A DNA stretch of 64,000 nt from NCBI GenBank assembly GCA_016281925.1, contig JAEEJP010000034.1, positions 33,665-97,664 on the forward strand, written 5' to 3'. This document shows, piece after piece, positions 6,516 through 52,617 of the stretch. How positions within the stretch are numbered: position 1 is the stretch's first letter; each line of letters starts with the position of its first letter. Under the pieces are notes generated by a model. It did not search any database. It had not been told where the DNA came from and saw only the letters and a program-made list of their open reading frames with translations. The translations under genes and the position numbers were made by a program. The stretch comes from Methanomassiliicoccaceae archaeon. GTDB taxonomy: Archaea > Thermoplasmatota > Thermoplasmata > Methanomassiliicoccales > Methanomethylophilaceae.

Positions 6516-7229
6516 TCGCGCCCGCCACGGCGTATCCCATTCCCACGGGCGGATGACTTCGGTGTACATGGCGAGGCCAACCCCCGCTCCCTCCGCCCCG
6601 CACTCGGACAGTATCTCCGCGTCCTCTCTGGAGGTCACTCCGCCGGACGCTATCACTTTGTGCGGGCATGAGCGGATGAAATCCCTTGCCTGGCGCTCGT
6701 CTATGCCTTTCCTCCGGCCTTCGACGTCGACATTGGTGTTGAGCACCGCGGCCAGAGGCATCCCCTTTATGCGGGCGAACATCTCGCCTACGGTGAGCTC
6801 CGCGGATTCCTGCCAGCCTTTGACTGCGATGCGCCCGCCTTTGGTGTCCATGGAAAGAACCATCCTGCCGGGGAATTCGTCGGCCAGATCCGCGAGCCAA
6901 TCGGGATCCCTGACGGCCTTGGTCCCCACTATCACGCGGTCGGCGCCCGCCGAGATCAGCTCTCTGACGGCTTCGGAAGACCTTATCCCTCCGCCGATCT
7001 CCACCGGAACCCCGAATTCTTTTATGATCCTCTTGAAGACCGGGAAATTGTTCTCCTTCCCGAATGCTCCGTCGAGATCGACCAGATGGAGGTATTCCGC
7101 GCCTTTGCCTATCCACATCCCCGCCACGGCGACGGGATCGGGCATGACGATCTGCTGGCTTCCGGGTACGCCTCCCACCAGCTGGACTACCTGGTGGTCC
7201 AGGACGTCGACGGCAGGTATCACCCTCAT
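6516..7229 (-). CDS. hisA: ProFAR isomerase (end placed at CGA 6516-6518; standard code extends to TAA at 6450)
   Basis: IPAVDV, HLVDLDGAF, EIGGGIRS, GADRVIVGT, IASGGV; 237 aa to the CGA is a normal HisA length. Confidence 0.93.
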
Positions 7230-10568: not shown

Positions 10569-11851
10569 TTCTTACCGTCCCTTCGGCGATATCCCATCAG
10601 AAGGTCGGTGTCGAACCGCCCCATCAGCATGGAATTCCCGTCCTCGTCATATACGTCATACAACGAATATATTTGGTCGATTGTTTCCTTCAGCTCCTCG
10701 GGCGAATCAGCGACGGCGAAGAATCTGCAGGCTATCTGCCTCAGGGTCCCTTCGCCGGAGATCTCGTCGCCCTCGTCATAGCAGGGGCTGACTCTGATCA
10801 CCCTGTCCAAACGGCCTATGGGACCGAGGCCGGCTATCCTGCCTATCTTCCCCGGTCTGGCAAGGACGGACAGCTTGCATCCCCAGCGGCCGCCCAGCAT
10901 CGGATCCGCTCTGCCGGAGATGCGGGAGCAGGACATGCGGCCTTCCATGGCATACTCTATCATCATCCTCTTGGTATCTATGCCGCAGGCCTCCGAGAAG
11001 ATGTAATGCTCCTGCGCCCCGCTGAGGCGGTATCCGGATTCGTAGAATGCTATCTTCCCGCTCGCGTCCGCGAACCCCTGGAGAAACATCACGCCGTCTC
11101 TGACGCCGGCTCTGCGGAACATCCCCTTGACGGCCCCGTCCTCCGATTCCATATATTTCCTGGTATGCTTCGAAGGGAAGACGTATGAGGTCGGGAGCTG
11201 GGCGAAGGATTGCATCTCATGGTTCGTGTAGCGGTCGCATAAGCCTAGGAGAACCGGCTCGCCGTCCTGGAACGCATAATAGACGACGACTTCCTGCCCG
11301 GACATGTACCTCTCGATCAGGGCTCTTCCCGAGCGCGAAAAACTGAGGGCTTCCTCGACCGCCGGCCGCAGGCCGCCGCGATCGTAGCAGACGGTTATCC
11401 CTCTGGATCCGCTGCTGTCCGCGGGCTTGACGATGAGCGGGAATCCGTCCGCGGGAAAATCCTCAATGCTTTCCCGGCTGTATATGCCTCCGCCCACCGT
11501 CGGAACGCCGCATCCCTCGCATAAGCTTTTGAAGGACTGCTTGTCGGAGAAAAGGCGCAGAAGCTCCCCGCTGGCATAGCAAGGCATATCCAGATCCGTG
11601 CATACCTTGCGGTAGACCCCCATGAGCATCTCGACCGCGCCCAGCACCACGCCGTCGACGCCTTCCGAACTGGCGATCTCCTCTATCTGATCCGCGTCAG
11701 TGCCGTCCACGTCGTAAGATCTGCGCGCATATCTCTTGGCATAAGCCTTGGGATCCGCATCGACGACCACGGTCTCAAGCCCCATGGAATTGGCTGTTTC
11801 GACCAATCCCGCCGTGGCAGAATTCCCGCCTATGACAAGCAACCGCGCCAT
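10565..11851 (-). CDS. ATP-grasp ligase (CGA at 10583-10585 may be the real end)
   Basis: DKQSFK, PLIVKPADSSGSRGI, LIERYM.G.E, FYE.GYRLSG. Confidence 0.85.
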   Translation of the reverse strand: MARLLVIGGNSATAGLVETANSMGLETVVVDADPKAYAKRYARRSYDVDGTDADQIEEIASSEGVDGVVLGAVEMLMGVYRKVCTDLDMPCYASGELLRLFSDKQSFKSLCEGCGVPTVGGGIYSRESIEDFPADGFPLIVKPADSSGSRGITVCYDRGGLRPAVEEALSFSRSGRALIERYMSGQEVVVYYAFQDGEPVLLGLCDRYTNHEMQSFAQLPTSYVFPSKHTRKYMESEDGAVKGMFRRAGVRDGVMFLQGFADASGKIAFYESGYRLSGAQEHYIFSEACGIDTKRMMIEYAMEGRMSCSRISGRADPMLGGRWGCKLSVLARPGKIGRIAGLGPIGRLDRVIRVSPCYDEGDEISGEGTLRQIACRFFAVADSPEELKETIDQIYSLYDVYDEDGNSMLMGRFDTDLLMGYRRRDGKK

Positions 11852-21700: not shown

Positions 21701-21787
21701 GACATGGCCCTGGAGGACGGCCTGATCATAGAGGAAGGCGGGAATCTGATGGCCGACGATTCGGGCGGCGTCATTCGGCGAGGCTGA
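15794..21787 (+). CDS. large DUF4011-SF1 helicase-Vsr-like nuclease-DUF3320 protein (Hhe-like) with N-terminal transglutaminase-like domain
   Basis: WKRDLLDITTRNPL (DUF4011); GPPGTGKSQTI; FDESSQ; GDRQQLPP; WHYRSRHESLI; VQGDERD; RRLNVAVSRA; FKVDLAV..GDGDSY..RDR..LGW; N-terminal GTCID..GHAFAG. Confidence 0.85.
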   Translation: MKLRLELEISKIGYVLYRNGMNPVLAASAEAEEDEKNITFTLRSDPPFIRKITFKADGIAAGTVLDLREHFNVALDPVRLLETAETMPCRVTLEAAGEDGTVKSESCDTEILPFEYWPGPDSPELIASFVTPNASCLARIRDSASETLRSWGKDPSLEGYGGDRNRVAEMAAAIYDAIQKLRIKYIVPPAGFEADGQRVRLADTVVSDREGTCIDVSVLYCSALESIGLNTFVFLVKGHAFAGFWLVDDHMADVISIDSSAITRLIRNRDARAVECTYLCDGHAAPFDSASEAALKRLEDAESFSCAVDIRKSRPAIRPLPTRRYENGVWSVEKDEFDTRSSAPKEVGEVYEAAEDRALTRVDIWKRDLLDITTRNPLVSMKVGAKAVPLLVGNTSEFGEAFAKGAQFTLMPKPQDWDGAGIYSERPFETETYVGNYAGSFGDELSRGWIRTPLGEADTVSSLKSIYRLYKKEMEESGCNSLFVAVGVLRWFESKGDRIPRYSPLILIPAELSKKQKGYAIEPYDEEAVFNVTLAEKLRQEYDISIPGIDPLPMDDGGLNVDRITQSVRRCIEGLEGWEVLDGAALGVFSFSQYAMWKDLEKNMGRLAENPVVEAMVSGGIYHADPDLEADADPYGLCLTVPADASQIKAVRAASEGKTFIMHGPPGTGKSQTITNIITDAIYRGKTVLFVAEKRAALDVVEKRLDGIGIGNHCLELHSDKTEKSKVLEQLRKAMDPCKEYDGSKLEETVAKLNAVKEKLDAYVSDLHRKQSWGFSAYECISLYEARNVAGAKDLRISTDTALRMKPETIGNLEDDIIKACQAYSIASGMCDTEALESIHADVPAASLQYDIEEAMDEALAAADALDAAGPRIAAAGILGDADQAGKAVSMIMSADARMASDPNLARIPELVPRIVSLSDSIFGAFAAWDPKEVRQDEAVRMMKDSGELSALASEASDAGWLPANSAIRSSAESVRTFCSKLISMRPDLDRIESQWRPEVYDFNSSYDIKKGWHEADGKVLFKSAAKKKFMSDVSKVLRPGASFDSLGITSDMISAAAQDFRSLSSVPGRISSASAGIFSERSALSDILNRATKTIAEAESVGISAGRLHELRAALESSGGGAEDYQAAVSRWEAARDRLISIMKTDADISQPDRCREYCGSIRPYLSGVFDWANWNYYASKLGEEGLGASCDAIRSGMAAEDVVNSTYKSLYRTMINLCRQESESLRMFNASTFEGTIERLRKLDAEYAEINRSLLKYRLYKSVPRNIDGSVPDSEAGKVYRAVSAGRMKKSIRTLLSEIPHMLPRLCPCLLMSPQSVAQYLTMDYPKFDLVIFDESSQITTSKAIGALGRGKAAVIAGDRQQLPPTRFFQKQMETEESEEEIEDMESFLEDCLALNMPQTYLEWHYRSRHESLITFSNRVFYDGKMLTFPSPNDQETKVGMHYVREGKYLKGRRCNPIEASAVIDEVYRRVMSRGYKGESIGIIAFSISQQNCIEDAMDEMTSKHPRFQQRLGKMSESMFIKNLETVQGDERDIILFSIGYGPSRDGTVVQNFGPINRPGGGRRLNVAVSRARCEMVVFSSMRYTDVKLTPASSSGVRSMREFLRFAENDGRFGEQDRARPVEDMSAIMKDISESLGEIGYESHFGIGSSGFKVDLAVVDPENPQEYILGILGDGDSYRRSENTRDREFARSDVLVRLGWNIMHVWSVDWFFNKKLTLKKIENRIEDILAKRAESAEEDGGELIPDDAPADEEPKEERPEGAVPGTEPEEGEPKDGIPEETSQEITYDPGEDMGQDIPEPEEEEPRRRTYIPLSLQFPDVPQDLALSDRQTIEEIAGKIIGMESPVNEEQLLALYKKCAGIKRLTGQKKLALTDILRRTFGPEIRGEFVTYWAEGADRSIPTYRAAGSPADSRDIDCIPLTEMMNACADVVESSVSISKTSCALAAGKALGFKRPGASVIAMMEKAIDMALEDGLIIEEGGNLMADDSGGVIRRG

Positions 21788-30628: not shown

Positions 30629-30910
30629 TCGCTCGAAATAATGCTTCTGCCTTTCCTTGGAGATGTGGAGGATGACTTCGGCGATCTGCCTGGCCTCGTC
30701 CTCGGAGAGGCTGACTTCCTCGCAGAGCTCGTGGTATCTGCTGATGACTTCGCGCTCTTTCTCCTCGTTCCAATAGCCTTCCGAAGACCTTCTCTTCGCT
30801 TTGGCGAGCTCGTCCGCTATCTCCATGCGAGTCGCGATGAGATCGATTATCTCCTCGTCTATCGATTCGATCTGCATCCTCAGCTCGTCCGTCTCAGGCT
30901 CCTCGGGCAT
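30629..30910 (-). CDS. chorismate mutase (AroQ type); end placed at CGA 30629-30631 (standard code runs on to TAG at 30464)
   Basis: LRMQIESIDEEIIDLIATRMEIA..K..REREVI..ISKERQ AroQ pattern. Confidence 0.85.
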
Positions 30911-41013: not shown

Positions 41014-41943
41014 TCAGTTTCTGCGCGCGTCCTCGTACGCGACCTGCGAAAGGGTCTTGATGCGGATGATCACGCTACTGTCGTCTATCCTGGACGGGAA
41101 TATGTCCGCGACCTCGCCGAGCTTCCTGCCGAAGACCTCGACGTTCTCGAGATATTCCCTGTGCTCCCTGTATGGGATCTTGACCCTGAGCCCGTCCAGA
41201 TGGAGGACCATCGGCGACGGCCTGAGGCACATGTCTATGGGTTCGTAGCCTTCGAGGATCTGCTTGACCTCGGCCGGGTGGACGAACAGGGGGTCCTCCT
41301 CCAGGCTCCTCTTCCTGTCGCGGAGCACCCTCTCCAGGGTGTCGGCGATCTCCTCGAGCTTGGCCCTCTCGGGGGGAGTCCTCATCCTTGAAGCCTTCCT
41401 GCCGACGCCGGAGACTATGGCCTCGCATTTGTCGTCGATGCCTTCCGGCTTCGGCCCGGATACCAGCACCGTCGGGATGCGGATGTCCTCTATGAGCTCC
41501 GATTTCTTCTCCACGCAGCTCTTGAAGTTCCCCATCACGAACACCGCCGCGTCGTACTCGTCGATGATCGCCTTCTCCTCGGCGGATATCTGGGATGTGG
41601 CTTTCCCTCTGCCTCTGGCCAGACCCATGACCACGGTGACCGAGCCGTATCTCCTGAGCTCCTCGGCTATGTCGCATATCGGATGAGGCATGTGGTGCCT
41701 GCCCAGGGTGGGGCCGATCACGGCTATCTCTGTGCCTGCCAGCGGGACGCTCTTCACCACGCCGCCGATGTCCGAGCACAGCTTGGAGATGGCTTCCCTG
41801 TCCTCGCCCGGAACCGACATGGTGACCATGAGCATCTGCGAGCTTCTGTTCTTCTGGAGGACGACGCCTCCCACGTCTTCGATCATCTCGAAGAGCTCCT
41901 CGGAGCGGTACACTCCGCCGTCGTACATCATGACCTCAAACAT
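41014..41943 (-). CDS. mmp7: methanogenesis marker protein 7
   Basis: YDGGVY..EDVGG, PTLGRHHMPHPICDIAE, GLARG.G; cluster context. Confidence 0.9.
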   Translation of the reverse strand: MFEVMMYDGGVYRSEELFEMIEDVGGVVLQKNRSSQMLMVTMSVPGEDREAISKLCSDIGGVVKSVPLAGTEIAVIGPTLGRHHMPHPICDIAEELRRYGSVTVVMGLARGRGKATSQISAEEKAIIDEYDAAVFVMGNFKSCVEKKSELIEDIRIPTVLVSGPKPEGIDDKCEAIVSGVGRKASRMRTPPERAKLEEIADTLERVLRDRKRSLEEDPLFVHPAEVKQILEGYEPIDMCLRPSPMVLHLDGLRVKIPYREHREYLENVEVFGRKLGEVADIFPSRIDDSSVIIRIKTLSQVAYEDARRN

Positions 41944-42502
41944 CTGCCGCGCCTCCCATGCTGGCGTGGATCTTCCTGCCTTCCCCCATCATGTCCGGGA
42001 GCAGGATCTCCTCTGTGGCGACCACGGTGATTATGTTGCCGTCCATCAGCACCCTGCGGTTCTTTATGCCCTCGGGCATCGACCTCCACAGGGCGCCCAG
42101 GATCTCGCGCTTGGTCTCCTCGCCGGAGGAAACCACCATGGCGGCTATGTCCTCCTCCTTCGCGCCTGAGACGTCGAGATCGAAGCGGGTCTGCTGGAAG
42201 ACCGACCTCCTGCCGTACTTCCCCCATAAGGCGGAAAGGATCGCGGGGGCATAGCGCTCCTGGGATATGGTCAGGTGGATGCTCTCCCCCTCGGCCCTGA
42301 CGTTGCACACGTCGGGGATGGTCTTGAGCGTGGGCTCCGACTTCAGAGCGATCGAGAATATGAAGAGAGGGACGTCCGGCCTGAGCACCAGCTTGGCCCT
42401 GTCGATGAGGACGGCCTTGTTGAGATCGCTCATGATCTCGTCGAACAGGCGCTGGTACGCCTCGTCCCCGAACCTGTCGTCCCCTATTACCTCGGTTTCC
42501 AT
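41936..42502 (-). CDS. mmp17: methanogenesis marker protein 17
   Basis: PLFIFS, E.YAP.L..LW.KYG..Q..RF, PEG; cluster context. Confidence 0.85.
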   Translation of the reverse strand: METEVIGDDRFGDEAYQRLFDEIMSDLNKAVLIDRAKLVLRPDVPLFIFSIALKSEPTLKTIPDVCNVRAEGESIHLTISQERYAPAILSALWGKYGRRSVFQQTRFDLDVSGAKEEDIAAMVVSSGEETKREILGALWRSMPEGIKNRRVLMDGNIITVVATEEILLPDMMGEGRKIHASMGGAADV

Positions 42503-42511
42503 GCGGATCCC

Positions 42512-43735
42512 TCACAGGAGTCCGGAGCTCAGCAGAGCGCCGCCGACCGCGCCGATGTACTGGGAATCGGGGGGCACGATGGGAGCCTCTCCGAGTATCT
42601 CCCCGACGGCGGTGACCAGACCGGAGATCAGGGACGTGCCGCCGACCTGGATGATCGGATGCCTGACGTCGATCTCCTGCAGCTGCTGCTCGTAGACCTG
42701 CTCCGCCACCGAGTGGCAGGCGGCCGCGGCCACGTCCTCGAATCTCTTGCCCTCTCCGAGGGTGGTGACCAGATCCTGGATCCCGAACACGGAGCAGTAG
42801 GAGTTCATCTTGGCGTTCCTCCAGTTCCCTTTGTCGGCGAGTGCCCCCAGCTGGGTGACCTCAATCTTGAGCCTCTTGGACGTCATCTCGAGGAACCTTC
42901 CGGAAGCTCCGGCGCAGATCCCTCCCATGGTGAAGTTGTCCGGGACGCCGTCCCTGACTGTGATCGCTTTGTTGTCCATCCCTCCGATGTCCAGGATGGT
43001 GGCTTCGCCTCTCTGCCTGTCGGCGAGCCAGACCGCGCCCTTGGAGTTGACCGTGAGCTCCTCCTGCACGAGCTTGGCGCCGAAATGGTCGCCGAGGGTG
43101 AAGCGCCCGTATCCGGTTGTGCCGATCGCCTCGACCTGGGACATCTCGATGCCGGCCATCTTCAGCGCGTTGCCGAGAACGGCTTCGGCCGATGCCACGA
43201 CATCCCCGGAAGGCGTCCAGTCCTTCCCGATGATCTTGTTGTTCTCCATGACCACGGCTTTGGTGGTGGACGACCCGGAATCCAGCCCGACGGTGATGCC
43301 GGTCTGCCTCTCCCTGGAGAGGAGCTCCTTCCTGGTGACTATGGTGACCAGAGCTTCCATTCTGGTCAGCAGCTGGGAAGCCTTGAGCCTCTCGGTGAAC
43401 GAATACGTCACGACCGGGAGCCTGGTGTTCTCCTGGATGAACCTACTGAGCTCGTTCCTGACAAATGCCGCATCGGAGCACCTGAAGCAGGTGGTGATGA
43501 ACACGGCGTCGGCGTCGTATTTCCCGTCGGCCAGCCTTACCGCCCTGGCGATCATCAGCTTCAGCTGCGGCGACCTGGGGACGAACCCGAACCTCTTCAC
43601 GGCCTCGTCTATGTCGGAGGCGGACACGTCGGGATACACTATCTTGGCGCCCACCGATCTGGCCGCCTTCTCTATCTCGTACTGGACGCTGCTGTACTCG
43701 GTCCCGCACGAGAGCTGCGCGATCTTGATGGTCAC
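42512..43735 (-). CDS. mmp15: methanogenesis marker protein 15 (CoA-dehydratase activase-like ATPase)
   Basis: [44 protein letters not shown]; GTG start. Confidence 0.92.
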
Positions 43736-44166
43736 TGCAATCCCTCCAGGAATTCCTTGGTCTGGGCGACGAAATTGACCGCCTGCTCGTCGTTCTCCGG
43801 GTAGGTGACCCTGAGCGCCGGGATCCCGCGCCTTTTTATCAGATATTTCACCATGAGATTGGACCTCTCGCATCCCACGCATCCGAAGCTGTATGGGCAG
43901 TCGTCCATGATGATGGCGGCGTCCGCCTCATCGATGAGGGGGCCCCAGAGAGCGAGCCTTCCCCTGACCCCGGACGGGACCTCCACTCCGGCGTATTTCA
44001 GCCCTTTGACGACGTCGTCGAGGGTGACGTTCATCGGCGGCATGTCCACCTCTATGTTGTCGACCCTCTCCTGGATGGCGGCCATGGTGCTGAGCGGTTC
44101 GTGCCCGAACCTTTCGACCAGATCGAAAAGCACCAGGCTGTTGGGCGGATCTATGAAGACCTTCAT
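43732..44166 (-). CDS. mmp5: methanogenesis marker protein 5
   Basis: [38 protein letters not shown]. Confidence 0.92.
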
Positions 44167-44585
44167 CGGCGTACCTCGCAAATTCTCTTGAAATCGTTTA
44201 CTGGAATGCGTTTCTTTTCCTCCGGAGGGACGTATCTGGCGCCTTTGGCGACCTCGTCCAGGCCGTGCTGGACCCTGGCCAGCAGCTCCCACTCCATCTC
44301 CAGCTGGGCATATCCCGGCCTGGTCCCGTGCATGGCGCGGCATCTCCTGGGGTCGCTGCTGGGGTACGCCCTGATCTTCGTGAACACCTCGTTGGGATAT
44401 CCTTCCCTGACCCTGTCGCGTATCGAAAGAACCAGCTCCCTGGGCCCTTCGACGAGGCACCCGTAGCATGTCTCCTTCACCAGAGCCTCCGCCCCGTACG
44501 CATGGACCATGCGCGCGAGCTGGTCCGGCGTGAGCGTGGATCTGGGCGATATCATGAACAGTCTTGTCTCCCTGGTTTCGCTCAT
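44163..44585 (-). CDS. mmp6: methanogenesis marker protein 6
   Basis: VKETCYG..EGP, F.K.R.YP..D.RRCRA..G.RPG..QLE.E; ends CGA-TGA. Confidence 0.9.
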   Translation of the reverse strand: MSETRETRLFMISPRSTLTPDQLARMVHAYGAEALVKETCYGCLVEGPRELVLSIRDRVREGYPNEVFTKIRAYPSSDPRRCRAMHGTRPGYAQLEMEWELLARVQHGLDEVAKGARYVPPEEKKRIPVNDFKRICEVRR

Positions 44586-46099
44586 AAATCCGCCTCCGTC
44601 ACATACACCGTGGCATCCTCCTCCAGGCCGTCCATCAGCCTGTCGAGGTCGTCCACGAACTTCCCTATGATGTTGGTCCCGTAGGGCTCCTCGCCGGTGG
44701 GGCCGTATTCCTTGCTGTCCTTCAGCCTTATGCCGATGAGGCCGTGGTGAGGCCTGGCCTGGTTGGTAAGGCCGATGTCCCCGCGCTTGGACTTCTTGAA
44801 GGGGTCCTGGGGGTACAGATTCTTGCCTCTCATCTCGTCGCCGTAGAAAGTCACCATGGGAAGCCCTTCGAAGGTGAACTGGACCTTCAGAGTCCCCACC
44901 GGCTTGTGGCTGAGGCCGGTTATCTTCCTGAAATACATGTTGCTGGCCGGATCTGAATCCGTCAGCTTGATCCTGAACACCCTGTCCCTCGGGACTCCGA
45001 AAGTCTCCACCTCCCCGTCCTTCAGGGCCTGCATGGTGCGCTCCGGGCTCTGCTCCGCGATGATCGCGCCGTCCGAAACGTCCCCGGTCCTGATCTGCTT
45101 GATCCCGGCGGCCTCCAGGAACTTGGCCCCCTCCGCCTGGGTCATCCCTACGGACAATGCGCGCGGAGGATCGGTGGTAACGGCGAACACGTCGCCCGCT
45201 TTGGCGCGGGAAAGGATCGCCGCCCCCTGGGTTATGTTCCCGGCCGACGTATGGCCGGGCGAGAGCTGCCTCTTCTCCTTGTAGAAGAACAAACGCCCGG
45301 TCCCGATGCCGCTGTTCCTGACCGCGACCGCCCCGGCGTCCCTTATTGCGATGTTCTCCGCCGGGATCTGGACGTCCAGATCGTCGGAGCATGATACGAA
45401 GCTGCCGGTGGCGTCCGTCGCCCTGATGAATCCCTGGCTGGAAAGCACGAGCACATGCTCGGACGCTTCGGGAGACGCCGGATCCAGCTTCACGGAAACG
45501 GAGGTCTCCACCCTGTACCCGTCGTCCAGCCTGAATGACAGGTCGTCCGTTACCACAACGTTCTCGGTGCTGGTCTCGGACATCAGCGGGCGGACGCCGA
45601 TTATGCGGTCCCCTTCCCTGATCTTGTCCAGTATGTGCCTGCCGACGGTTATCCTGCCGATCAGGCCGTGTCCGGCGCCGTATGAGCCGCTGTGGTTGTC
45701 CCTGGCCACCATGATGTAGGTGGTGTGGTTGTCGAACCCTCCCAGCGCGAAGAAGCAGTCGTACACCCTGTAATGGAACGTCTCCCTGCTCACTTCCAGA
45801 TCGGTGGGGAACGATCCGAAGGCGGCGATGTCGTGGGTGACCCACCTGGCGTTGGCTCCGGCTATGGACTGGGCCACTTTGGACCTCCACATCTCGGCCA
45901 GAGGCGAATCGTTCAGGCGCATGACCATGGTCCCGGCTTCGGTCTCGATCTCGAAGTCGCTGGTCTCGGTGACCACCTTCTCCTCGGACAGATGGACGGA
46001 AATCAGGGAGCCTTTGACGTAGGTCTCCCCGGCGATCGCGGTCTTGAGCGTGGAGCCGGCTTTGAGCTTCTTCTCCTTGCCGTTGACGGTGACTATCAT
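44582..46099 (-). CDS. mmp3: methanogenesis marker protein 3 (cyclophilin-like)
   Basis: [36 protein letters not shown]. Confidence 0.9.
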
Positions 46100-46722
46100 T
46101 CCATACCGCGCTCCGGAAGCATGGACTGCACTTTCGACACGATCTCGTCCAGCTTGTCCTGGTCGCAGGTCACTCCCCTGACGACGCCGGTGACGATGTT
46201 CACGATCTCGCCTTTGGTCTGTATCTTATCGTCCGGAGGCATTACGCGCGACGTCTTGACGCCGATCGCCGCGAAATCCTCGAAGTCTATGGGGCACTGG
46301 GCTACGATGATCGCAGGTATGTTCACGTTCCTGAGAATGAGCCTGGCCTTGTAGATGATGTGTGCCCTGACGTTCCCCAGGTGGATCAGCGCCACCTTGT
46401 ATTGCTGGATCCTCTCCACCTCGATCGGGTCGAGGCCGAAGCAGGATCCCGTAGTCATGTCCGGCGCGTCGGCCGGGACTCCCGAGCCGGCGTTCACCAC
46501 CAGGACGCTGGTGTCTATCCCCTCTTCGCGGAGCGCATAGGTAATCTCGCAGACTGGCTTGGTGATGTGCCTCCTTCCGGGGCCCATCGCTATCGCCACC
46601 ACGTCCCTCCCGGACTCGGAGATGGTCGCCCTCTGAGCGAGACCTCCTCCGACGCCGAGGCCCATCGATTCCCTGCACTCGACGAAGCTGAGATGCCTTC
46701 CCATCTTCTGCTTCAATTTCAT
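46096..46722 (-). CDS. mcrC: methyl-coenzyme M reductase operon protein C
   Basis: [45 protein letters not shown]. Confidence 0.93.
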
Positions 46723-48326
46723 TCACCTTCGGGCACTGGCTCCATGTTGAACTCCTCGAGGATGTCCTCGGGGTTCCCGATGGATACGACCGTTCCGTTC
46801 TTCATGAAGGCGGCGCGGTCGCAGCAGTTCATAACGAAATCCATGTCGTGGCTGACGACTATGAACGTCTCTCCCAGGGTCTCCCTCGCCCTCACCACTG
46901 ATTTCGCCACTATCGTCTTGGTGATCGGATCCATGGTCCCGGTGGGCTCGTCCAGTATGATTATGCGGGGCTCTTTGATCAGGACCTGGGCGAACGCGAT
47001 CCTCTGGCACTCCCCTACGGAAAGGGAATCCGGATAGGAATAGAGGGTCTTCTCGACGGTCTCCTTGGGGAAGCCGACGCTGGTCAGGACCTGGATGGCC
47101 TTGACCTTGGCGAGATCCGCGGGCATCTTCATGCCGATGCATGTGGTGAGGTTCTGGAGGACTGTGTCGAAGGGATACAGCGTGTATTCCTGGTGGAGGA
47201 CGCCGATATACGGGGTCGCCCTCCCTTTTCCGGCGAACCCGCTCTCCGACATGTCGACCCAGTCGTCCCCGATTTTGATCTTGACGGTGCCCGAAGTTGC
47301 AGGTGTCATCCCGGCGATCATGCGCGAGGTGGTGGTCTTCCCCGCGCCGGAATAGCCTATCAGGGCGAAGACCTCCCTCTCTTTGATGTCGAACGACACT
47401 CCGTCGACGGCTTTGACGACCCCCCTGACCACCGAGAAATAGTGCTTTTTGGCGTTGTCGAGGACGATTATGGGCTCGCCCAGCTTCCCGACCGCCTGCT
47501 TCTCGAAATGGTAGTCCTTCATGAAGAGATCGGTGACTTCCTTGGGGTTCCCCTGCTTGACGACGTCGCCGGCCTCCAGGAGGATGGCCTCGTCCGCCAT
47601 CCTGGTGATCGCCTCCGGCCAATGGGACGCGAACACCATGCAGATGTTCATCTTGCGCACGTAATCGATGAGCCCCTGGTGGACGGTCTCCGCCGTGGTG
47701 GGATCCAGAGTCCCGGTGGGCTCGTCGGCCAGGAAGAACAGCGGCTCTTTGGCGAGCTGCCTTGCCATGACCACGCGCTGCTTCTCTCCTCCCGACAGAT
47801 CCCTGGCGATGTGGGTGGTCCTGTGGGTCATGTTGACCATCTCGATCATCTCGATCGCGCGCCTGACGCGTCTCTCGCCCTCGTAATCCGGGGTGACGGC
47901 CTCCATGACGTTCTCGATGACCGTCTTGTCGCCGAACAGGGCGAAAGTCCTCTGAAGCATGATGGCGATATGGGATTTCACAGCCGATCTGAGGGGGTCG
48001 TCCTCTTTGAGCGCCCAATAGTCCACCGCCAGCTTCTCGGTGTCACCTCCGCATTTCACGCAGGGGATCCCCTTCAGCGGGAGATCCAGGTCGCCGCATT
48101 TCTTGCAGCGGTTGACATGATAAATCACGCGCCCGGTGTCCGGGGCGTACTCGTCGCTGCCTCTGAGCATGTGGATCAGAACGCTCTTTCCGGCCGCGCT
48201 CTTCCCGACCAGACCGAGGATCTTCCCCGTGGAAAGCTTGGCGCTGACATTCTTCAAGACGCATCTTCCGTCGAAGGATTTGGAGACGTTCTCGATTTCC
48301 AGAAGGTCGACAGATTCTTGAGCCAT
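46719..48326 (-). CDS. atwA: methyl-coenzyme M reductase system component A2 (ABC-type ATPase)
   Basis: Two ABC cassettes (GKSAAGKS; GYSGAGKTT), Zn motif [23 protein letters not shown]. Confidence 0.95.
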
Positions 48327-48445
48327 ACGCTCCGTACAATCTTCTGCCAATAAATAATATCTGAAAATTGCCGTCGGTCCGGCCGGGCAATAGCTGCCTC
48401 CGGCCATAACCGGAACCTAAATATCCGCCCACTTGTCCAGACAGT

Positions 48446-48460
48446 CAAAACTATTTAAAT
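48446..48460 (+). promoter_or_regulatory. BRE/TATA for the divergent DUF2111 regulator operon
   Basis: CAAAACTATTTAAAT ending about 20 nt before ATG 48481. Confidence 0.5.
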
Positions 48461-48480
48461 TGGATGAAAGATGCATCCAT

Positions 48481-49443
48481 ATGACCCATGGATCGGCCAA
48501 ATCAGGCGGACCCCTGCCGAAATACAGCGACTACCACATCTGGAAGGCCATCGAGACCCTCGACGGCAGGAACACCATCGGCAGGAAGAAGCTGGCGGAG
48601 CTCCTTGGAATCGGGGAAGGAAGCACCAGATCGATAATATCCATCATGCAGGAGCAGGGCCTGGTCACGATCGGCAAAAGCGGAATCCTTCTCACCGCCA
48701 AGGGCATGGAATTCAGGAAGAAGACCCATATGGAGATCGCCCCGGACATAGACGTAGACGGCCTCACCATAGGGGAAGCCAACGTTGCCGTCCGCATCCC
48801 GAAGATGGCCAGGAGCGTGAAGTACGGGTGCGAGGAGAGGGATGCGGCCATAAAATCCGGCGCATCCGGAGCTACCACGCTGATTTACACGGGCGGGAAG
48901 CTGTCGTTCCCTGGCTCCGACCATCCGGTGGACGCGAAAGCGGAAGAGAGCATAAGATCCTGCTTCCAGCTCAAGAGCGACGACGTCATAATAATAGGGA
49001 CGGGGCCGACACTCGAAGCGGCGGAGATCGGCGCGGTGAACGCCGGACTGGCCATTCTGGGAGGGATGAGATTCGGACGCGAGCTGGAGGACATCCTTTC
49101 GTCCCGCAGCTCCGGCAGCGAGCTCATCTCCCTTGCGTTCGCCATCCACGACCTGGTCGGAGGGCTCCCGGTCTGCGCGAAGAGCAGGGACAACCTCGGG
49201 ATAAGGATAGAGAACGGAAAGGTCATAGACAACGCGTATACCGGCCAGGTCCTCGAGGAGGTCATCAGCGCCGGTACCACGATACGCAAGATCGCCGTTT
49301 CCGGGCCTTACAAAGGCATCAGGGTCATTGTAACCCCGATAGAGCTGGACAACCGCATCATCGCGGCGATCGGCGTGGTCGACATAAGGTCGATGGCAGG
49401 CGCCAACAACCTCATCAGGCTCAGGAGCGACGACAATGAGCGA
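48481..49443 (+). CDS. wHTH + DUF2111-like domain regulator; end placed at CGA 49441-49443 (standard code runs on to TAG at 49855)
   Basis: IGRKKLAELLGIGEGSTR HTH; RDAAIKSGA.GATT; C-terminal YTG.VLEEVI..GPYKG..VIV.PI..IAAIGVVD. Confidence 0.8.
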
Positions 49444-49780
49444 GACCTGCAGGGTGGTGGTCGACGCCGGGGTGTGCAGGAAACGCACTCTGATAACGGC
49501 GGAAGAGGACATGGGTATGGTCCATGTGGATATAAAGAGCGAATGCCCCAACGTGCTGAGGCTTTCCTGGGGCCTGAAGCCGATCAGCGCGTTCTCCGAA
49601 GTGGAAGCGAAAATCTCGGAATCGGAGATATACAGGCTGGCGGAGGAGACGATACCCCACGCCGCGTGCCCGGTCATGTCCGGCATCATAAAAGCGATAG
49701 AAGTCGCGGGGAATCTGGGTCTGAAACGCGACTGCAGCATCCATTTCCTGGAAGAGGGCGAAACTTCCGACGTCAGATGA
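49436..49780 (+). CDS. small Cys-containing hypothetical protein
   Basis: DAGVC..SECPNV..HAACPV..KAIEV; coding-like codon usage. Confidence 0.8.
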   Translation: MSETCRVVVDAGVCRKRTLITAEEDMGMVHVDIKSECPNVLRLSWGLKPISAFSEVEAKISESEIYRLAEETIPHAACPVMSGIIKAIEVAGNLGLKRDCSIHFLEEGETSDVR

Positions 49781-49866
49781 CGGTCAGAACCATCGCATCC
49801 GCCAGAATACGTTCCAATCCGTCCGATTGCATACATTTTTTTACGACTAAAGCATAGAGAGCAATT

Positions 49867-50424
49867 ATGACAGCGGATCCGGACGCACCGGGCGACAAAC
49901 AGCTCGAAATCATACGCGGGCTGAGAGGGGTCATCCATGCCTTCTACCTCGACAAGGAGATACTGTCCGAGCTCGAGAAGGAGGAGGCGAAAGTCCGTGC
50001 GATGGGAAACATCGAAGTGGACAACCAGGGGTTCAAGCAGGCTTTGGGACGCGACAGCGTCATCTGCATCGTAAAGGATCCCAGGTTCAGGCCGCCGCCG
50101 GAGCCCACCGTGATCCTCGTATCCGGAGAAGGCAACATCATCGGCGAGGAGGTATTCCCGTTCACGGCGAGCAAATACACGTCCAGAGACGACGTGGTAT
50201 GGCTTTCCGACGGATTCGTGCTGTTCCCGACGGTCCAGGCCAGCGGAGGGGAGCAGTTCGTCATGCCCCCCGTATCGTTCCCGGAGCTGAACGAGAGCAA
50301 CGGATGCAAGAACGTCATATCCTGCAGCCCGGCGCCCACCAGCGATCTCATGATCAAGAAGCACTACGGCCTGGTGGACAATCCGAAGCTGGCTTCCGTT
50401 CTAGTGGCCTTCGACAGGATGTGA
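49867..50424 (+). CDS. hypothetical protein
   Basis: Coding-like ORF with FRPPPEPTV and SCSPAP; no family recognised. Confidence 0.7.
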   Translation: MTADPDAPGDKQLEIIRGLRGVIHAFYLDKEILSELEKEEAKVRAMGNIEVDNQGFKQALGRDSVICIVKDPRFRPPPEPTVILVSGEGNIIGEEVFPFTASKYTSRDDVVWLSDGFVLFPTVQASGGEQFVMPPVSFPELNESNGCKNVISCSPAPTSDLMIKKHYGLVDNPKLASVLVAFDRM

Positions 50425-50487: not shown

Positions 50488-52617
50488 ATGGCCTCCAACG
50501 TCGTCAGGGAACTCATCGGCAACAGAAAGCTCTGCATAAGCTGCCGCGCATGCGAGAACGTATGCGGGGAAAGCGCAATCTCTCTGGCTACCGACAACGT
50601 CGGGTTTCTGAGGTCTTCGGTCGACGAAAGCAGATGCACCGAATGCGGGAGATGCGCGGAAGTCTGCCCTGTTCTTTCACCGCTCCCGGAAAGCAAGAGG
50701 AGGCGCGATTACTATGCCTTCAGAGCCAGCGCGGAAGTGGCCAGCACCAGCTCCTCCGGAGGGGCATTCCCGATCCTGGCCGATTGGATGCTGGCCCGCG
50801 GGGGATGCGTCTGCGGGGTCATCCTCGAGGACGGGGTGAACGCCGTGTACGCTCTGACCGACGACAGGGACACCGTGCTGAAGATGCGCGGCCCGAAATA
50901 CGCCCCCAGCGACATGGGCCATATCTACGGGGAAATAAAGAAAAAACTGGATGAAGGCAGAGAGGTCCTCTTCGTCGGGATGCCCTGCCACGTCCATGCC
51001 CTGCTCAACATCGTAGGGGACCACCCCCATCTTTTCACCGCGGACATAGTATGCACCGGCCAGCCGTCCCCGATGATCTATCAGAAATACATCGAGGAGC
51101 TGTCCGCCGAGAAGCCCATCACCAACCTGGACTTCAACCCCAGAGGCCAGCCGAAGGGCTCCGTCGCGATAATGTATGCCGACGGATCGTTCAGGATGTC
51201 AGTCTACGATCCCTTCGTGAGGGCATGCAATGCGAGCCTGATCATCAACCAGGGATGCGCCGCATGCAGGTTCATAGACGACAGGCCCGGCGACATAACC
51301 CTGGGAGACCTCGCGGGAAGCGACAAAGTGGCCGGCAGCGCCGCCGGGACGATCAGCCTGGTCATGGTGAACAGCCAGAAAGGCGCGGCCATGGCCTTCG
51401 ACATGAACGACGCGGCCGATTTCGCCGAAAGGATACCCAAACCGAACCTGGAGGAGAACCCCGGGCTGAAACATGAACGCAGGCTGCATCTGGCCTGGAT
51501 AAGGATGGTCCACTTCATCCAGCGCGGGCATCCGGTCGCGAAATCCATCAGCTACTGCCTCAGATGGAAATTCGACGTGGGAATCACCGGATTCTGGCGC
51601 GTCCGCAATTTCGGCGGGGAGCTCACCTATTACGCTCTTTACCACACCATGATAGACATGGGTCTGGAGCCCCTCATGATCGAATCCAGAAGGGCCTCCA
51701 AAAGGAACGCTCCCCCGAGCCCTCCCCTTCTGGCGACGAAATATCCGTTCTACAACATAGCGAAATGGTACGCCAAAAAGGAGGATCAGGAGGAGCTCAA
51801 CGACAGGATAGACAATTTCATAGTCGGGTCGGACCAGGTCTGGAACAGGAAGTTCATCACCCAGGACATCCTGGAATGCTATACCCTGGATTTCGTCCAC
51901 GACGACAAGAACAAGATCGCCATCGCTTCGTCTTTCGGGACGGACAGATTCGAGGGGACGGAAGAGGAGAAGGAATCCTTCGCCGCGCTGCTCAGAAGGA
52001 TCGACCATCTTTCCGTGCGCGAGAACTCCGCCGCGGAGCTCTGCAGGGAGCTGGGGGCGGAGGCGGACATACTCATCGATCCCGTCATGATCTGCGATGT
52101 GAAGCATTTCGAAGCCCTTTCGGAAGCTTCCAACGCGCGCTATCCGCTCCAGTTCGCCTTCAACTACATGATGCACCCGGTCAACTTCGAAGGCATGGAG
52201 AAGATCTACGATGAGCTCGGATACGGCCCGGTGACCGCCGGGAACGCGTCCTCGAACTTCAACGAGAGGATAGATTATCCCAGGACATCCGTCGGAACCG
52301 TCGAGAACTGGATGAAAGGTCTCAGAAGCTCGTCGTTCGTGGTAACGGATTCGTTCCACGGGACGGTGTTCTCCGTCCTTTTCAGGAAACCGTTCGTAAC
52401 TCTGATCGGAGAATGGGACGAGGGATCGGGAGTCGGCAGGATTACGACCCTGCTGAAAACCCTGGGCCTCGAAGAGCGCATCTGCAGGACGCCGCAGGAA
52501 GCGGTGGAATCCGGGGTTCTGTTCGCGCCCATAGATTACGACGAAGTCCACAGGAAACTGGATAAGGAACGCGAGATCGCCATGGCCTGGGTGAAGAACG
52601 CCCTGAACCTGGCATGA
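50488..52617 (+). CDS. 4Fe-4S/FrhB-like + polysaccharide pyruvyltransferase fusion (copy 1)
   Basis: Two CxxCxxCxxxC motifs, SSSGG, VGMPCH, DIVC, DITLGD; NFGG.L, GSDQVWN, SVRE, DPV, TDSFHG. Confidence 0.88.
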   Translation: MASNVVRELIGNRKLCISCRACENVCGESAISLATDNVGFLRSSVDESRCTECGRCAEVCPVLSPLPESKRRRDYYAFRASAEVASTSSSGGAFPILADWMLARGGCVCGVILEDGVNAVYALTDDRDTVLKMRGPKYAPSDMGHIYGEIKKKLDEGREVLFVGMPCHVHALLNIVGDHPHLFTADIVCTGQPSPMIYQKYIEELSAEKPITNLDFNPRGQPKGSVAIMYADGSFRMSVYDPFVRACNASLIINQGCAACRFIDDRPGDITLGDLAGSDKVAGSAAGTISLVMVNSQKGAAMAFDMNDAADFAERIPKPNLEENPGLKHERRLHLAWIRMVHFIQRGHPVAKSISYCLRWKFDVGITGFWRVRNFGGELTYYALYHTMIDMGLEPLMIESRRASKRNAPPSPPLLATKYPFYNIAKWYAKKEDQEELNDRIDNFIVGSDQVWNRKFITQDILECYTLDFVHDDKNKIAIASSFGTDRFEGTEEEKESFAALLRRIDHLSVRENSAAELCRELGAEADILIDPVMICDVKHFEALSEASNARYPLQFAFNYMMHPVNFEGMEKIYDELGYGPVTAGNASSNFNERIDYPRTSVGTVENWMKGLRSSSFVVTDSFHGTVFSVLFRKPFVTLIGEWDEGSGVGRITTLLKTLGLEERICRTPQEAVESGVLFAPIDYDEVHRKLDKEREIAMAWVKNALNLA

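What the first reader, a model, noticed from the sequence alone, without database searches (positions are those of the whole stretch)
49436..49869. CGA site 1: DUF2111 regulator ends in an ATGAGCGA overlap with the next gene
The DUF2111-like domain ends at ..RLRSDDNE, and the next codon is CGA (49441-49443). It overlaps the downstream ATG in the 8-nt ATGnnnGA geometry also used by mmp17/mmp7 (ATGTTTGA). Read as Arg, the frame runs about 138 codons across the whole next gene to a TAG at 49855. If that TAG is Pyl, the frame fuses into the ORF at 49867, which is an unlikely product.
Basis: partly seen in the sequence, partly recalled or inferred. Interest (0 to 1): 0.8.

Follow-up and report, generated by a model that had tools for sequence, protein, structure and literature searches.

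The report
Arginine codon CGA ends this gene
In this gut methanogen the arginine codon CGA behaves as a stop codon, ending this regulator gene exactly where related species have TGA. This is one clean case of a genome-wide code change that no paper I could find has established for a free-living cell.

Summary
The wHTH/DUF4443/DUF2111 gene (48433-49440) is followed in frame by CGA (49441-49443). That CGA lies inside an 8-nt ATGAGCGA overlap with the DUF6951 gene. No standard stop follows until TAG at 49855.

The CGA is the functional terminator:
- About 45 related MAGs have TGA or TAA there, many with the same ATGAGTGA or ATGACTGA overlap. Only two close relatives share CGA.
- The 138-codon run-on frame is not conserved (5 synonymous against 56 non-synonymous codon differences; DUF6951 frame 34 against 26). 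It holds 7 CGAs and no Pfam domain.

Genome-wide:
- CGA is the rarest codon inside genes (0.26 per 1000; background 23).
- It ends about 395 of 1700 predicted genes.
- In-frame sequence after it looks as non-coding as after TGA or TAA. After TAG it stays coding, so TAG is probably pyrrolysine.

The release-factor gene aRF1 keeps one conserved in-frame CGA, at shifting Arg positions across the family. In this genus tRNA-Arg(UCG) always carries a 31-39 mismatch.

This scan reached the same CGA = stop reading earlier on other genomes of the family. I found no paper that establishes it. The mechanism (aRF1 reads CGA, the tRNA is weakened, aRF1 regulates itself) is inferred. No RNA or protein data were available.

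The parts
48433..49440 (+). CDS of a putative transcription regulator (336 aa): N-terminal winged-helix (CggR_N-like), DUF4443 and DUF2111. It is divergently placed from the atwA-mcrC-mmp3-mmp6-mmp5-mmp15-mmp17-mmp7 cluster.
   Evidence: Pfam. Neighbours named by NCBIfam. Orthologs found in 41/41 relatives. The start codon (TTG 48433) is not verified.
49441..49443 (+). CGA codon acting as the terminator of the regulator gene.
   Evidence: Orthologs have TGA or TAA at the identical codon. Genome-wide, CGA behaves like TGA and TAA. A contig from an independent run also has C at 49441.
49436..49443 (+). 8-nt stop/start overlap ATGAGCGA (start of DUF6951 and end of the regulator).
   Evidence: The same geometry with TGA is seen in relatives. 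ATG at offset -5 occurs in 2.2% of CGA stops and 1.7% of TGA stops.
49423..49427 (+). AGGAG, a Shine-Dalgarno-like motif 8 nt upstream of the DUF6951 ATG, inside the end of the regulator CDS.
   Evidence: Read from the sequence. Conserved in relatives as ...AGGAG(T/C)GA.... Its function is inferred.
49436..49780 (+). DUF6951 gene (114 aa, Cys-rich), ending in TGA.
   Evidence: Pfam PF22263, E = 5e-31. This is the conserved frame in the overlap region (34 synonymous / 26 non-synonymous codon differences).
49444..49857 (+). Run-on of the regulator frame (138 codons to TAG). It is not a coding frame.
   Evidence: No Pfam hit. 5 synonymous / 56 non-synonymous codon differences against relatives. 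Six further in-frame CGAs, the first 7 codons downstream at 49462.
49867..50424 (+). 185-aa ORF of no known family, in the same frame as the regulator gene.
   Evidence: Orthologs are present in relatives with their own stops.
44166..44168 (-). CGA ending mmp6 (DUF2102), in a CGATG overlap with the mmp5 start. It is directly followed by TGA.
   Evidence: Orthologs have TGA or TAA, or CGA in other MAGs.
6516..6518 (-). CGA ending hisA (237 aa).
   Evidence: His_biosynth profile positions 1-227 of 228 lie in residues 2-226. Gene call.
30629..30631 (-). CGA ending a chorismate mutase gene (103 aa).
   Evidence: CM_2 profile positions 1-80 of 80 lie in residues 20-99. Gene call.
10583..10585 (-). 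CGA at the end of an ATP-grasp gene. This is a weaker case, with a standard stop a few codons on.
21779..21781 (+). CGA at the end of a 1995-aa gene. This is a weaker case, with a standard stop shortly after.

Best explanation
CGA at 49441-49443 is the translation stop of the DUF4443/DUF2111 regulator gene. In this Methanomethylophilaceae genome, CGA has been removed from sense positions and reassigned to termination. The working stop set is TGA, TAA and CGA, while TAG is mostly read through, presumably as pyrrolysine.

The site arose by a T-to-C change in an ancestral ATGAGTGA stop/start overlap. That change was effectively a stop-to-stop (synonymous) substitution. The regulator therefore ends at ...RSDDNE (336 aa), and ribosomes can reinitiate at the overlapping DUF6951 ATG, which has its own AGGAG motif.

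Inferred mechanism:
- The single aRF1 recognises CGA as a near-cognate of UGA.
- It wins because the cognate tRNA-Arg(UCG) is handicapped. In this genus that tRNA always has a 31-39 mismatch, which leaves a 4-bp anticodon stem.
- The tRNA is kept because aRF1's own mRNA carries one in-frame CGA at an essential Arg. aRF1 synthesis would then fall when aRF1 is abundant, in analogy to the in-frame UGA of bacterial RF2.

What is shown: codon statistics, ortholog stops, and the conservation patterns of the tRNA and of aRF1.
For: Site level:
- About 45 related MAGs end the ortholog with TGA or TAA at the identical codon. Only G003/RGIG8197 and RGIG6908 share CGA.
- The run-on frame shows 5 synonymous against 56 non-synonymous codon differences. 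The overlapping DUF6951 frame shows 34 against 26.
- The run-on has no Pfam domain and 7 CGAs in 139 codons. The three neighbouring CDS have 0 in 635 in-frame codons.

Genome level (G000):
- In-frame CGA is the rarest codon inside genes, at 0.26 per 1000 against a background of 23.
- Its positions in standard-code ORFs are U-shaped by decile: 259, 67, 27, 14, 6, 8, 9, 46, 81, 264.
- After the first CGA in the second half of an ORF, the codon score flips from +0.26 to -0.29 in 90% of 123 cases. Control codons stay near +0.15.
- With CGA as a stop, gene calls rise from 1345 genes over 1.49 Mb to 1700 genes over 1.67 Mb. Stops are then TGA 1135, CGA 395, TAA 104 and TAG 66.
- The in-frame score of the 40 codons after each stop is TGA -0.36, TAA -0.33, CGA -0.33 and TAG +0.18.
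- 21% of CGA stops sit in a CGATG stop/start overlap. 63% have no standard stop within 12 codons.
- Domain models of hisA and chorismate mutase (Pfam) and of mmp6 (NCBIfam) end just before their CGA.

Relatives:
- Orthologous stops flip between TGA and CGA across about 25 MAGs, with 0 in-frame CGA per roughly 3000 aligned codons.
- Against the closest genome, G139, 2 of 19 gene ends differ CGA/TGA at the same codon.

aRF1:
- It has one in-frame CGA at conserved Arg81 in 25 of 26 genus genomes, while the flanking codons drift synonymously.
- Twenty further genomes from 5 other genera all carry a CGA at Arg codon 14, 28, 53, 81 or 126.

tRNA:
- tRNA-Arg(UCG) has a 31-39 mismatch (A.A, C.A or U.C) in 19 of 19 genus copies.
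- The position is paired in all 18 copies found in 7 other genera of the family and in 2 copies from other families of the order.
- It is the only one of 44 tRNAs scored in G000 with that mismatch.

Precedent: yeast eRF1 can release at CGA in competition with tRNA-Arg (PMC7379694).
Against: - A tRNA-Arg(UCG) gene is still present in G000, so CGA can in principle still be read as Arg. It must be read so in aRF1.
- No aRF1 residue in the NIKS, YxCxxxF or GT-loop motifs differs from relatives. No aRF1 column separates CGA-avoiding from CGA-using genera.
- This site has no back-up standard stop for 138 codons, and its +4 base is G rather than the favoured T. Some leak cannot be excluded.
- CGA stops are under-used in the best-adapted genes (9% against 29%), which suggests a weaker stop.
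- There is no RNA, ribosome-profiling or peptide evidence.
- Gene calls come from my own crude codon-score finder, although the ortholog and Pfam checks do not depend on it.
Confidence: 0.88

Rival explanations
1. CGA is an unassigned or 'hungry' codon. Ribosomes stall there because tRNA-Arg(UCG) is scarce or defective, and they are resolved by a rescue pathway (aPelota/ABCE1-type) or by drop-off rather than by aRF1 recognition. The gene still effectively ends at CGA.
For: The tRNA-Arg(UCG) anticodon stem is mismatched throughout the genus. No tRNA-Arg(UCG) was found in some genus genomes. No diagnostic aRF1 change was found. CGA stops are avoided in well-adapted genes.
Against: About 23% of genes end this way, a heavy load for a rescue pathway. 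The CGATG stop/start coupling at 21% mirrors genuine stop codons. The conserved in-frame CGA in aRF1 itself points to the release factor as the sensor. Pelota-type factors have no peptidyl-tRNA hydrolysis motif (established knowledge).
Confidence: 0.07
2. CGA is ordinary arginine here. The regulator then carries a real 138-aa C-terminal extension, or with TAG read as Pyl it forms a chimera of more than 660 aa reaching into the next ORF.
For: The standard code and the tRNA-Arg(UCG) gene would allow it. Two other MAGs also have CGA at this position.
Against: Orthologs stop exactly here. The extension frame is unconstrained (5 synonymous / 56 non-synonymous), overlaps the whole DUF6951 gene out of frame, has no domain, has 7 CGAs and looks non-coding. 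Genome-wide, this reading would imply stop loss in about 395 genes.
Confidence: 0.03
3. C-to-U RNA editing turns CGA into UGA in the mRNA, so the genetic code itself is standard.
For: Nothing direct. It would explain CGA standing at TGA positions. No RNA reads were available to exclude it.
Against: It would need site-specific editing at about 395 sites that share no motif beyond a +4 T preference, while sparing the essential CGA in aRF1. It does not explain why CGA is purged from sense positions. As far as I know, no mRNA C-to-U editing system is known in archaea.
Confidence: 0.02
4. A sequencing or assembly artefact: the true base at 49441 is T.
For: The genome is a fragmented MAG of 122 contigs, 86% complete.
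Against: The same CGA is present in two independently assembled MAGs from other hosts and in a contig from an unrelated run. The pattern is frame-specific and genome-wide and recurs in dozens of assemblies.
Confidence: 0.005

Closest known systems
Sense-to-stop reassignments in organelles (vertebrate mitochondrial AGA/AGG, NCBI table 2; UCA in Scenedesmus, table 22; UUA in Thraustochytrium, table 23; green-algal cases in PMC6821328)
   Same: A sense codon, again an arginine codon in the vertebrate case, disappears from coding positions and marks gene ends.
   Different: Those are tiny organellar genomes with a handful of genes. This is a free-living archaeal genome with about 395 CGA-ended genes. 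The cognate tRNA gene is retained. No stops are enriched in the -1 or +1 frame after CGA, which rules out the frameshift-to-UAG route proposed for human mitochondria (established knowledge).
Suspected CGA = stop in two hydrothermal-vent archaeal MAGs with CGG = Trp (Melnykov, bioRxiv 10.64898/2026.04.02.715157)
   Same: CGA is absent from recognisable domains in an archaeon, and the author raises the possibility that it is a stop.
   Different: That is a different lineage. There tRNA-Arg(UCG) was not found and CGG is also reassigned, and the stop meaning was left untested. Here CGG stays in use and tRNA-Arg(UCG) is retained but altered. The stop role is supported by ortholog stops.
eRF1/eRF3 misdecoding of CGA as a stop in yeast (Wada and Ito 2018, PMC7379694)
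   Same: A class-I release factor of the eRF1/aRF1 type can release at CGA in competition with tRNA-Arg. That gives a plausible molecular route without changing the factor.
   Different: In yeast this is low-level misreading at an inefficient codon, not a fixed property of the code.
Autoregulation of bacterial RF2 (prfB) by an in-frame UGA
   Same: A release-factor gene carries, in frame, a codon that the factor itself terminates at, and the feature is conserved across many species.
   Different: RF2 escapes by +1 frameshifting. Here the escape would be plain decoding of CGA as Arg by a tRNA. The position of the CGA moves among Arg codons 14, 28, 53, 81 and 126 in different genera. The regulation is untested.
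Archaeal 'genetic code 34', with all TAG read as pyrrolysine (Kivenson et al., bioRxiv 10.1101/2024.09.30.615893)
   Same: It concerns the same family (Methanomethylophilus, Methanogranum and Methanoplasma are listed). In G000, TAG is followed by in-frame coding sequence in 77% of cases, and tRNA-Pyl is present.
   Different: That work concerns a stop-to-sense change. The text search found no occurrence of 'CGA' in that paper.
tRNAs with 4-bp anticodon stems that change decoding (PMC13092985)
   Same: tRNA-Arg(UCG) of this genus has a mismatched 31-39 pair, which leaves 4 bp in the anticodon stem.
   Different: The known cases increase near-cognate reading, for example tRNA-Trp reading UGA. 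Here I infer reduced or altered reading of the cognate codon, and the direction of the effect is unknown.

Membership tests
Genetic-code variant: sense codon reassigned to stop | The codon is absent, or nearly so, from conserved sense positions. | tested here: met
   0.26 per 1000 inside genes, the lowest of all codons. 0 CGA per roughly 3000 aligned codons in most related loci. Only 23 of 781 in-frame CGAs have coding sequence on both sides, and of the 15 ORFs holding those that I inspected, all but aRF1 are gene boundaries or gene ends.
Genetic-code variant: sense codon reassigned to stop | The codon stands where orthologs have canonical stop codons. | tested here: met
   The DUF2111 gene and 15 neighbouring genes across 57 loci. 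The aRF1 neighbourhood against G139. Domain models end just before the CGA.
Genetic-code variant: sense codon reassigned to stop | Sequence downstream of the codon is non-coding in that frame. | tested here: met
   After-stop score of -0.33 for CGA, against -0.36 for TGA, -0.33 for TAA and +0.18 for TAG. Local count of 5 synonymous / 56 non-synonymous codon differences.
Genetic-code variant: sense codon reassigned to stop | The cognate tRNA is lost or disabled. | tested here: inconclusive
   tRNA-Arg(UCG) is present in G000 and in 18 other genus genomes, always with a 31-39 mismatch. It was not found by DNA or pattern search in G008, G015 and G019. G005 and G007 gave no clear candidate, apart from one unverified pattern hit in G007. 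The functional effect is unknown.
Genetic-code variant: sense codon reassigned to stop | The release factor recognises the codon, and protein ends are verified. | not testable with these tools
   No RNA or protein data. aRF1 recognition motifs are unchanged.
RF2-like autogenous control of a release factor | A conserved in-frame terminator codon inside the release-factor gene. | tested here: met
   CGA at Arg81 in 25 of 26 genus genomes, with the one exception carrying CGA at Arg28. 20 of 20 further genomes from 5 genera carry a CGA at Arg 14, 28, 53, 81 or 126. CGA is otherwise about 0.08 per 1000 in g17 genes.
RF2-like autogenous control of a release factor | Expression responds to the level of the factor. 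| not testable with these tools
   This needs reporter or in vitro translation assays.
Pyl-decoding archaea with TAG as a general sense codon ('code 34') | tRNA-Pyl is present and TAG is followed by in-frame coding sequence. | tested here: met
   tRNA-Pyl(CUA) found. 77% of TAG 'ends' are followed by coding-like sequence, and 74% stay open for at least 40 codons. The pylS and pylBCD genes were not searched.
DUF4443/DUF2111 archaeal regulator family | Pfam domains PF14544 and PF09884 above the gathering score, plus an N-terminal wHTH. | tested here: met
   DUF4443 at 100 bits, DUF2111 at 109 bits and CggR_N at 38 bits.

The most novel reading that the evidence does not exclude
A large clade of host-associated methanogens (Methanomethylophilaceae) uses a doubly altered nuclear code. 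TAG is pyrrolysine and the arginine codon CGA is a true fourth-type stop read by an unmodified aRF1. CGA was first purged family-wide. In this genus it then became a freely used stop, after tRNA-Arg(UCG) was crippled by a 31-39 mismatch. The tRNA survives only to read the single in-frame CGA through which aRF1 measures and limits its own abundance.
Probability: 0.5. Interest if true: 0.95.

Novelty: new variant of a known kind. Interest (0 to 1): 0.86.

Why it matters
**First cellular case.** If confirmed, this would be the first sense-to-stop reassignment in a cellular, non-organellar genome. It occurs in a family common in human and livestock guts.

**A trajectory in view.** The stages appear side by side:
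- Methanomethylophilus-type genomes avoid the codon but rarely end genes with it.
- This genus ends about 23% of genes with it.
- Close relatives differ TGA/CGA at the same site.

**Testable hypotheses.** It gives concrete ideas about how a release factor can capture a sense codon. The three elements are tRNA weakening, unchanged aRF1 motifs, and an in-frame sensor codon in aRF1.

**Annotation.** Under table 11, roughly a quarter of this genome's proteins get false C-terminal tails, and downstream genes are masked. My calls rise from 1345 to 1700 genes when CGA is a stop. The regulator here would be called as 474 aa instead of 336. Public protein sets for these MAGs are probably affected in the same way.

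**Genetic-code engineering.** The family supplies the widely used Methanomethylophilus PylRS/tRNA-Pyl pair.

Tried and rejected
**RNA and read evidence**
- The look-up of sequencing runs listed no RNA holder and only small-share DNA runs.
- Laid contigs cover the site once (run X2, depth 2, C at 49441).
- RNA editing and expression therefore could not be tested.

**Loss of the tRNA as the explanation.** Rejected for G000, where tRNA-Arg(UCG) is present.

**Change in aRF1 recognition motifs**
- NIKS, YxCxxxF and the GT loop are unchanged.
- Four genus-specific substitutions (A20D, S145C, F253V, A273I) lie outside them.
- No column separates CGA-avoiding from CGA-using genera.

**Frameshift-to-stop, as proposed for mitochondrial AGA/AGG.** Stops are not enriched in the +1 or -1 frame after CGA.

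**CGA as merely a C-terminal Arg before a standard stop.** Only 7.5% of CGA stops are directly followed by a standard stop.

**Real internal CGAs other than aRF1.** The candidates were same-frame adjacent genes or gene ends. Two junctions remain unresolved: the NifH-like/NifD-like pair on C29, and the THUMP/PP-loop junction of a ThiI-like protein on C29.

**Programmed fusion of the regulator with DUF6951.** The two are separate genes, 50-150 nt apart, in more distant relatives. I did not search protein databases for fused forms.

**Literature.** Searches found no paper establishing CGA = stop in this family.

**Not run.** No structure prediction or complex prediction was run, because neither bears on the question.
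Full report
**1. The observation**

- The sequence reads ...CTC AGG AGC GAC GAC AAT GAG CGA GAC CTG..., with CGA at 49441-49443.
- The upstream ORF starts at 48433. Its first 336 codons carry a CggR_N-like winged helix, DUF4443 and DUF2111, with the last Pfam match ending at residue 318.
- ATG at 49436 opens a 114-aa DUF6951 gene ending at TGA 49778-49780. The two genes therefore share the 8 nt ATGAGCGA.
- AGGAG at 49423-49427 lies 8 nt before that ATG.
- Read as Arg, the frame runs 139 codons (counting the CGA) to TAG at 49855-49857. The ATG of the next ORF (49867-50424) is in the same frame.

**2. What orthologs show**

- The gene is present in 41 of 41 related genomes and in 58 loci of the species collection. 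The record titles place it in Candidatus Methanomethylophilaceae, in gut and rumen MAGs that include UBA71.
- At the codon aligned with the CGA, genus relatives have TGA, and a few have TAA. Many read ...GACAATGAG TGA or ...AATGAC TGA, which is the same overlap with the DUF6951 start.
- Only G003/RGIG8197 (water buffalo rumen) and RGIG6908 (sheep rumen) share CGA.
- In the region beyond the CGA, codon differences between G000 and those relatives are 34-38 synonymous against 26-27 non-synonymous in the DUF6951 frame. In the run-on frame they are 4-5 synonymous against 56-63 non-synonymous.
- The run-on has no Pfam match. It contains 7 CGAs in 139 codons, the second only 7 codons downstream. The three real CDS at 48433-50424 contain none in 635 codons, yet they hold 55 CGAs out of frame.
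- A contig from an unrelated sequencing run also has C at 49441.

**3. The site is one case of a genome-wide rule**

I used a self-trained codon-score gene finder on the 1.96-Mb assembly (GC 57.8%).

- In-frame CGA is 1.58 per 1000 codons overall and 0.26 per 1000 in the middle of genes. That is the lowest of all codons, against 23 per 1000 in the background.
- Its positions in standard-code ORFs are sharply U-shaped: 259 in the first decile, 6-9 in the middle deciles and 264 in the last.
- After the first CGA in the second half of an ORF, the mean codon score drops from +0.26 to -0.29. It is negative in 90% of 123 cases. After control rare codons (CGT, CGG, CTA, TTA, TGT, AGT, CAA, CCA) it stays at +0.07 to +0.18.
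- Treating CGA as a stop raises the non-overlapping gene set from 1345 genes over 1.49 Mb to 1700 genes over 1.67 Mb. Stops are then TGA 1135, CGA 395 (23%), TAA 104 and TAG 66.
- The cleanest control is the in-frame score of the 40 codons after each kind of stop: TGA -0.36, TAA -0.33, CGA -0.33 and TAG +0.18. After TAG, 77% of cases look coding and 74% stay open for at least 40 codons.

CGA therefore behaves like the two canonical stops, and TAG behaves like a sense codon. The TAG result fits the tRNA-Pyl(CUA) gene and the proposed archaeal 'code 34' in this family (10.1101/2024.09.30.615893).

- 21% of CGA stops lie in a CGATG stop/start overlap, against 5.8% TGATG for TGA. TGA instead shows A at -1 in 36% of cases, against 10% for CGA, which is consistent with frequent ATGA overlaps that CGA cannot form.
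- Only 7.5% of CGA stops are directly followed by a standard stop, and 63% have none within 12 codons.
- Domain models of hisA, chorismate mutase and mmp6 end just before their CGA.
- With CGA = *, the local ORF map tiles cleanly: 48433-49443, 49436-49780, 49867-50424 and 50488-52617.

**4. Interchange with TGA among relatives**

- Across 16 genes around the regulator in 57 loci, orthologous stops switch sporadically between TGA and CGA in about 25 MAGs.
- Most of those loci have 0 in-frame CGA in roughly 3000 aligned codons. A subgroup of more distant genera uses CGA as sense at 8-11 per roughly 3000.
- Against the closest genome, G139 (about 93% aa identity), 2 of 19 gene ends differ CGA/TGA at the identical codon.

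**5. The two exceptions that point to a mechanism**

(a) *aRF1.*
- Only 23 of 781 in-frame CGAs have coding-like sequence on both sides. The 15 ORFs holding them that I read are adjacent same-frame genes or gene ends.
- The one clear internal case is aRF1 itself (G000:C62:11485-12723, minus strand). Its CGA is at codon 81, the Arg of ...AARLKT... I recall this Arg as conserved up to human eRF1, from memory.
- That codon is CGA in 25 of 26 genus genomes while the neighbouring codons drift synonymously. The exception has its CGA at Arg28.
- In 20 further genomes from five other genera, every aRF1 has a CGA. It sits at Arg28 in g17 (8/8), g11 (5/5) and g15 (4/5), at codon 14 in g22 (4/4), and at 28, 53 or 81 in g13.
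- In a g17 genome (G092) I analysed 400 kb. Its size of 1,666,795 bp fits Ca. Methanomethylophilus alvus, from memory. There CGA is 0.08 per 1000 inside genes. Only 10 of 361 genes 'end' in CGA, and most have a standard stop 0-9 codons later.
- The codon is therefore purged family-wide, kept in aRF1, and used heavily as a stop in this genus.

(b) *tRNA-Arg(UCG).*
- The gene is retained in G000 (C39:13195-13268).
- In 19 of 19 genus copies the 31-39 pair next to the anticodon loop is mismatched (A.A, C.A or U.C), while the other four stem pairs covary.
- The position is paired in all 18 copies from seven other genera of the family and in 2 copies from other families of the order.
- It is the only one of 44 tRNAs scored in G000 with such a mismatch.
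- In G008, G015 and G019 no tRNA-Arg(UCG) was found by DNA or pattern search. G005 and G007 gave no clear candidate, apart from one unverified pattern hit in G007. These genomes nevertheless keep the aRF1 CGA, which is unexplained.

**6. Mechanism (inferred)**

- aRF1, whose recognition motifs are unchanged, releases at CGA as a near-cognate of UGA.
- This activity has been shown at low level for yeast eRF1, in competition with tRNA-Arg (PMC7379694).
- Family-wide purging of CGA fits an ambiguous-intermediate stage.
- In this genus a weakened tRNA-Arg(UCG) would make termination dominant. T-to-C changes at TGA stops then became nearly neutral.
- The fall in CGA share from 29% to 9% with rising codon adaptation (TGA rises from 59% to 85%) suggests that CGA is still the weaker stop.
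- The in-frame CGA in aRF1 would make aRF1 synthesis depend inversely on aRF1 activity. This is analogous to the in-frame UGA of RF2, but it works through readthrough rather than a frameshift.

None of these steps has been tested biochemically.

**7. Rivals**

- *Ordinary Arg with a real extension:* contradicted by sections 2 and 3.
- *Stalling and rescue without aRF1:* not excluded, but it fits poorly with 23% of genes, with CGATG coupling and with the aRF1 sensor codon.
- *C-to-U mRNA editing:* untestable here because no RNA runs were listed. It does not explain the purge of sense CGA or the spared aRF1 codon.
- *Frameshift to an out-of-frame stop:* rejected.
- *Assembly artefact:* rejected by the independent assemblies.

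**8. Known or new**

- Literature searches found no paper establishing CGA as a stop in this family or in any cellular genome.
- The nearest statement is a conjecture for two vent-archaeal MAGs with CGG = Trp (10.64898/2026.04.02.715157).
- Sense-to-stop changes are known from organelles.
- Earlier reports of this scan reached the same CGA = stop and aRF1-CGA reading on other genomes of the family and on a virus. I had reached my reading before consulting them and re-tested it here.
  - ortholog proof at this site;
  - the genus-specific 31-39 mismatch of tRNA-Arg(UCG);
  - the moving position of the aRF1 CGA across genera;
  - near-absence of CGA, with little stop use, in a Methanomethylophilus-type genome;
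  - the dependence of CGA-stop use on codon adaptation.

**Verdict.** The site is a clean instance of a probable new genetic-code variant, with stops TGA, TAA and CGA, and TAG read as Pyl.

Noticed in passing
G000:C62:11485-12723 (-), outside the window; L032: The single aRF1 gene has one in-frame CGA at conserved Arg81. The codon is conserved in 25 of 26 genus genomes. In other genera of the family the CGA sits at Arg 14, 28, 53, 81 or 126.
   Followed up: yes
G000:C39:13195-13268 (+), outside the window; L140: tRNA-Arg(UCG) has an A.A mismatch at 31-39. A mismatch at that pair is present in 19 of 19 genus copies and absent in 20 of 20 copies from other genera and families. It is the only such tRNA among 44 scored in G000.
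   Followed up: yes
G008, G015, G019, G007, G005 (genus relatives): No clear tRNA-Arg(UCG) was found by DNA or pattern search, apart from one unverified pattern hit in G007. Two of these are complete single-contig genomes. All five keep an in-frame CGA in aRF1 (codon 81 in four; G005 has it at codon 28). What reads that codon is unexplained. The tRNA-Arg(CCG) of G000 has an internal U.U mismatch in its anticodon stem and might be a candidate reader.
   Followed up: partly
whole genome G000; in the window, gene calls ending at TAG at 10152, 25041 and 36028 (minus strand): TAG behaves as a sense codon. 77% of TAG 'ends' are followed by in-frame coding-like sequence, and tRNA-Pyl(CUA) is present. 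This fits the proposed archaeal code 34.
   Followed up: partly
G000:C29:46301-48647 (+) and G000:C29:31315-32827 (-): Two junctions have a CGA between domains that are often parts of one pathway or protein: a NifH-like/NifD-like pair, and the THUMP/PP-loop junction of a ThiI-like protein. They may be ordinary gene boundaries or readthrough sites. In the NifH-like case no obvious ATG follows the CGA.
   Followed up: no
G092:C1:1-400000 (L200-L219): A Methanomethylophilus-type complete genome has almost no CGA inside genes (0.08 per 1000). Only about 3% of its genes end in CGA, mostly with a standard stop 0-9 codons later. This looks like an earlier or different stage of the same code change.
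   Followed up: partly
whole genome G000: CGA stops prefer T at +4 (54%, against 24% for TGA), as CGATC (25%) and CGATG (21%). The CGA inside aRF1 is always followed by C. This may be a context effect on termination efficiency.
   Followed up: partly
window 41014-48407 (-): A complete methanogenesis-marker cluster (atwA, mcrC, mmp3, mmp6, mmp5, mmp15, mmp17, mmp7) lies divergent from the regulator gene. That makes it the regulator's likely target.
   Followed up: partly
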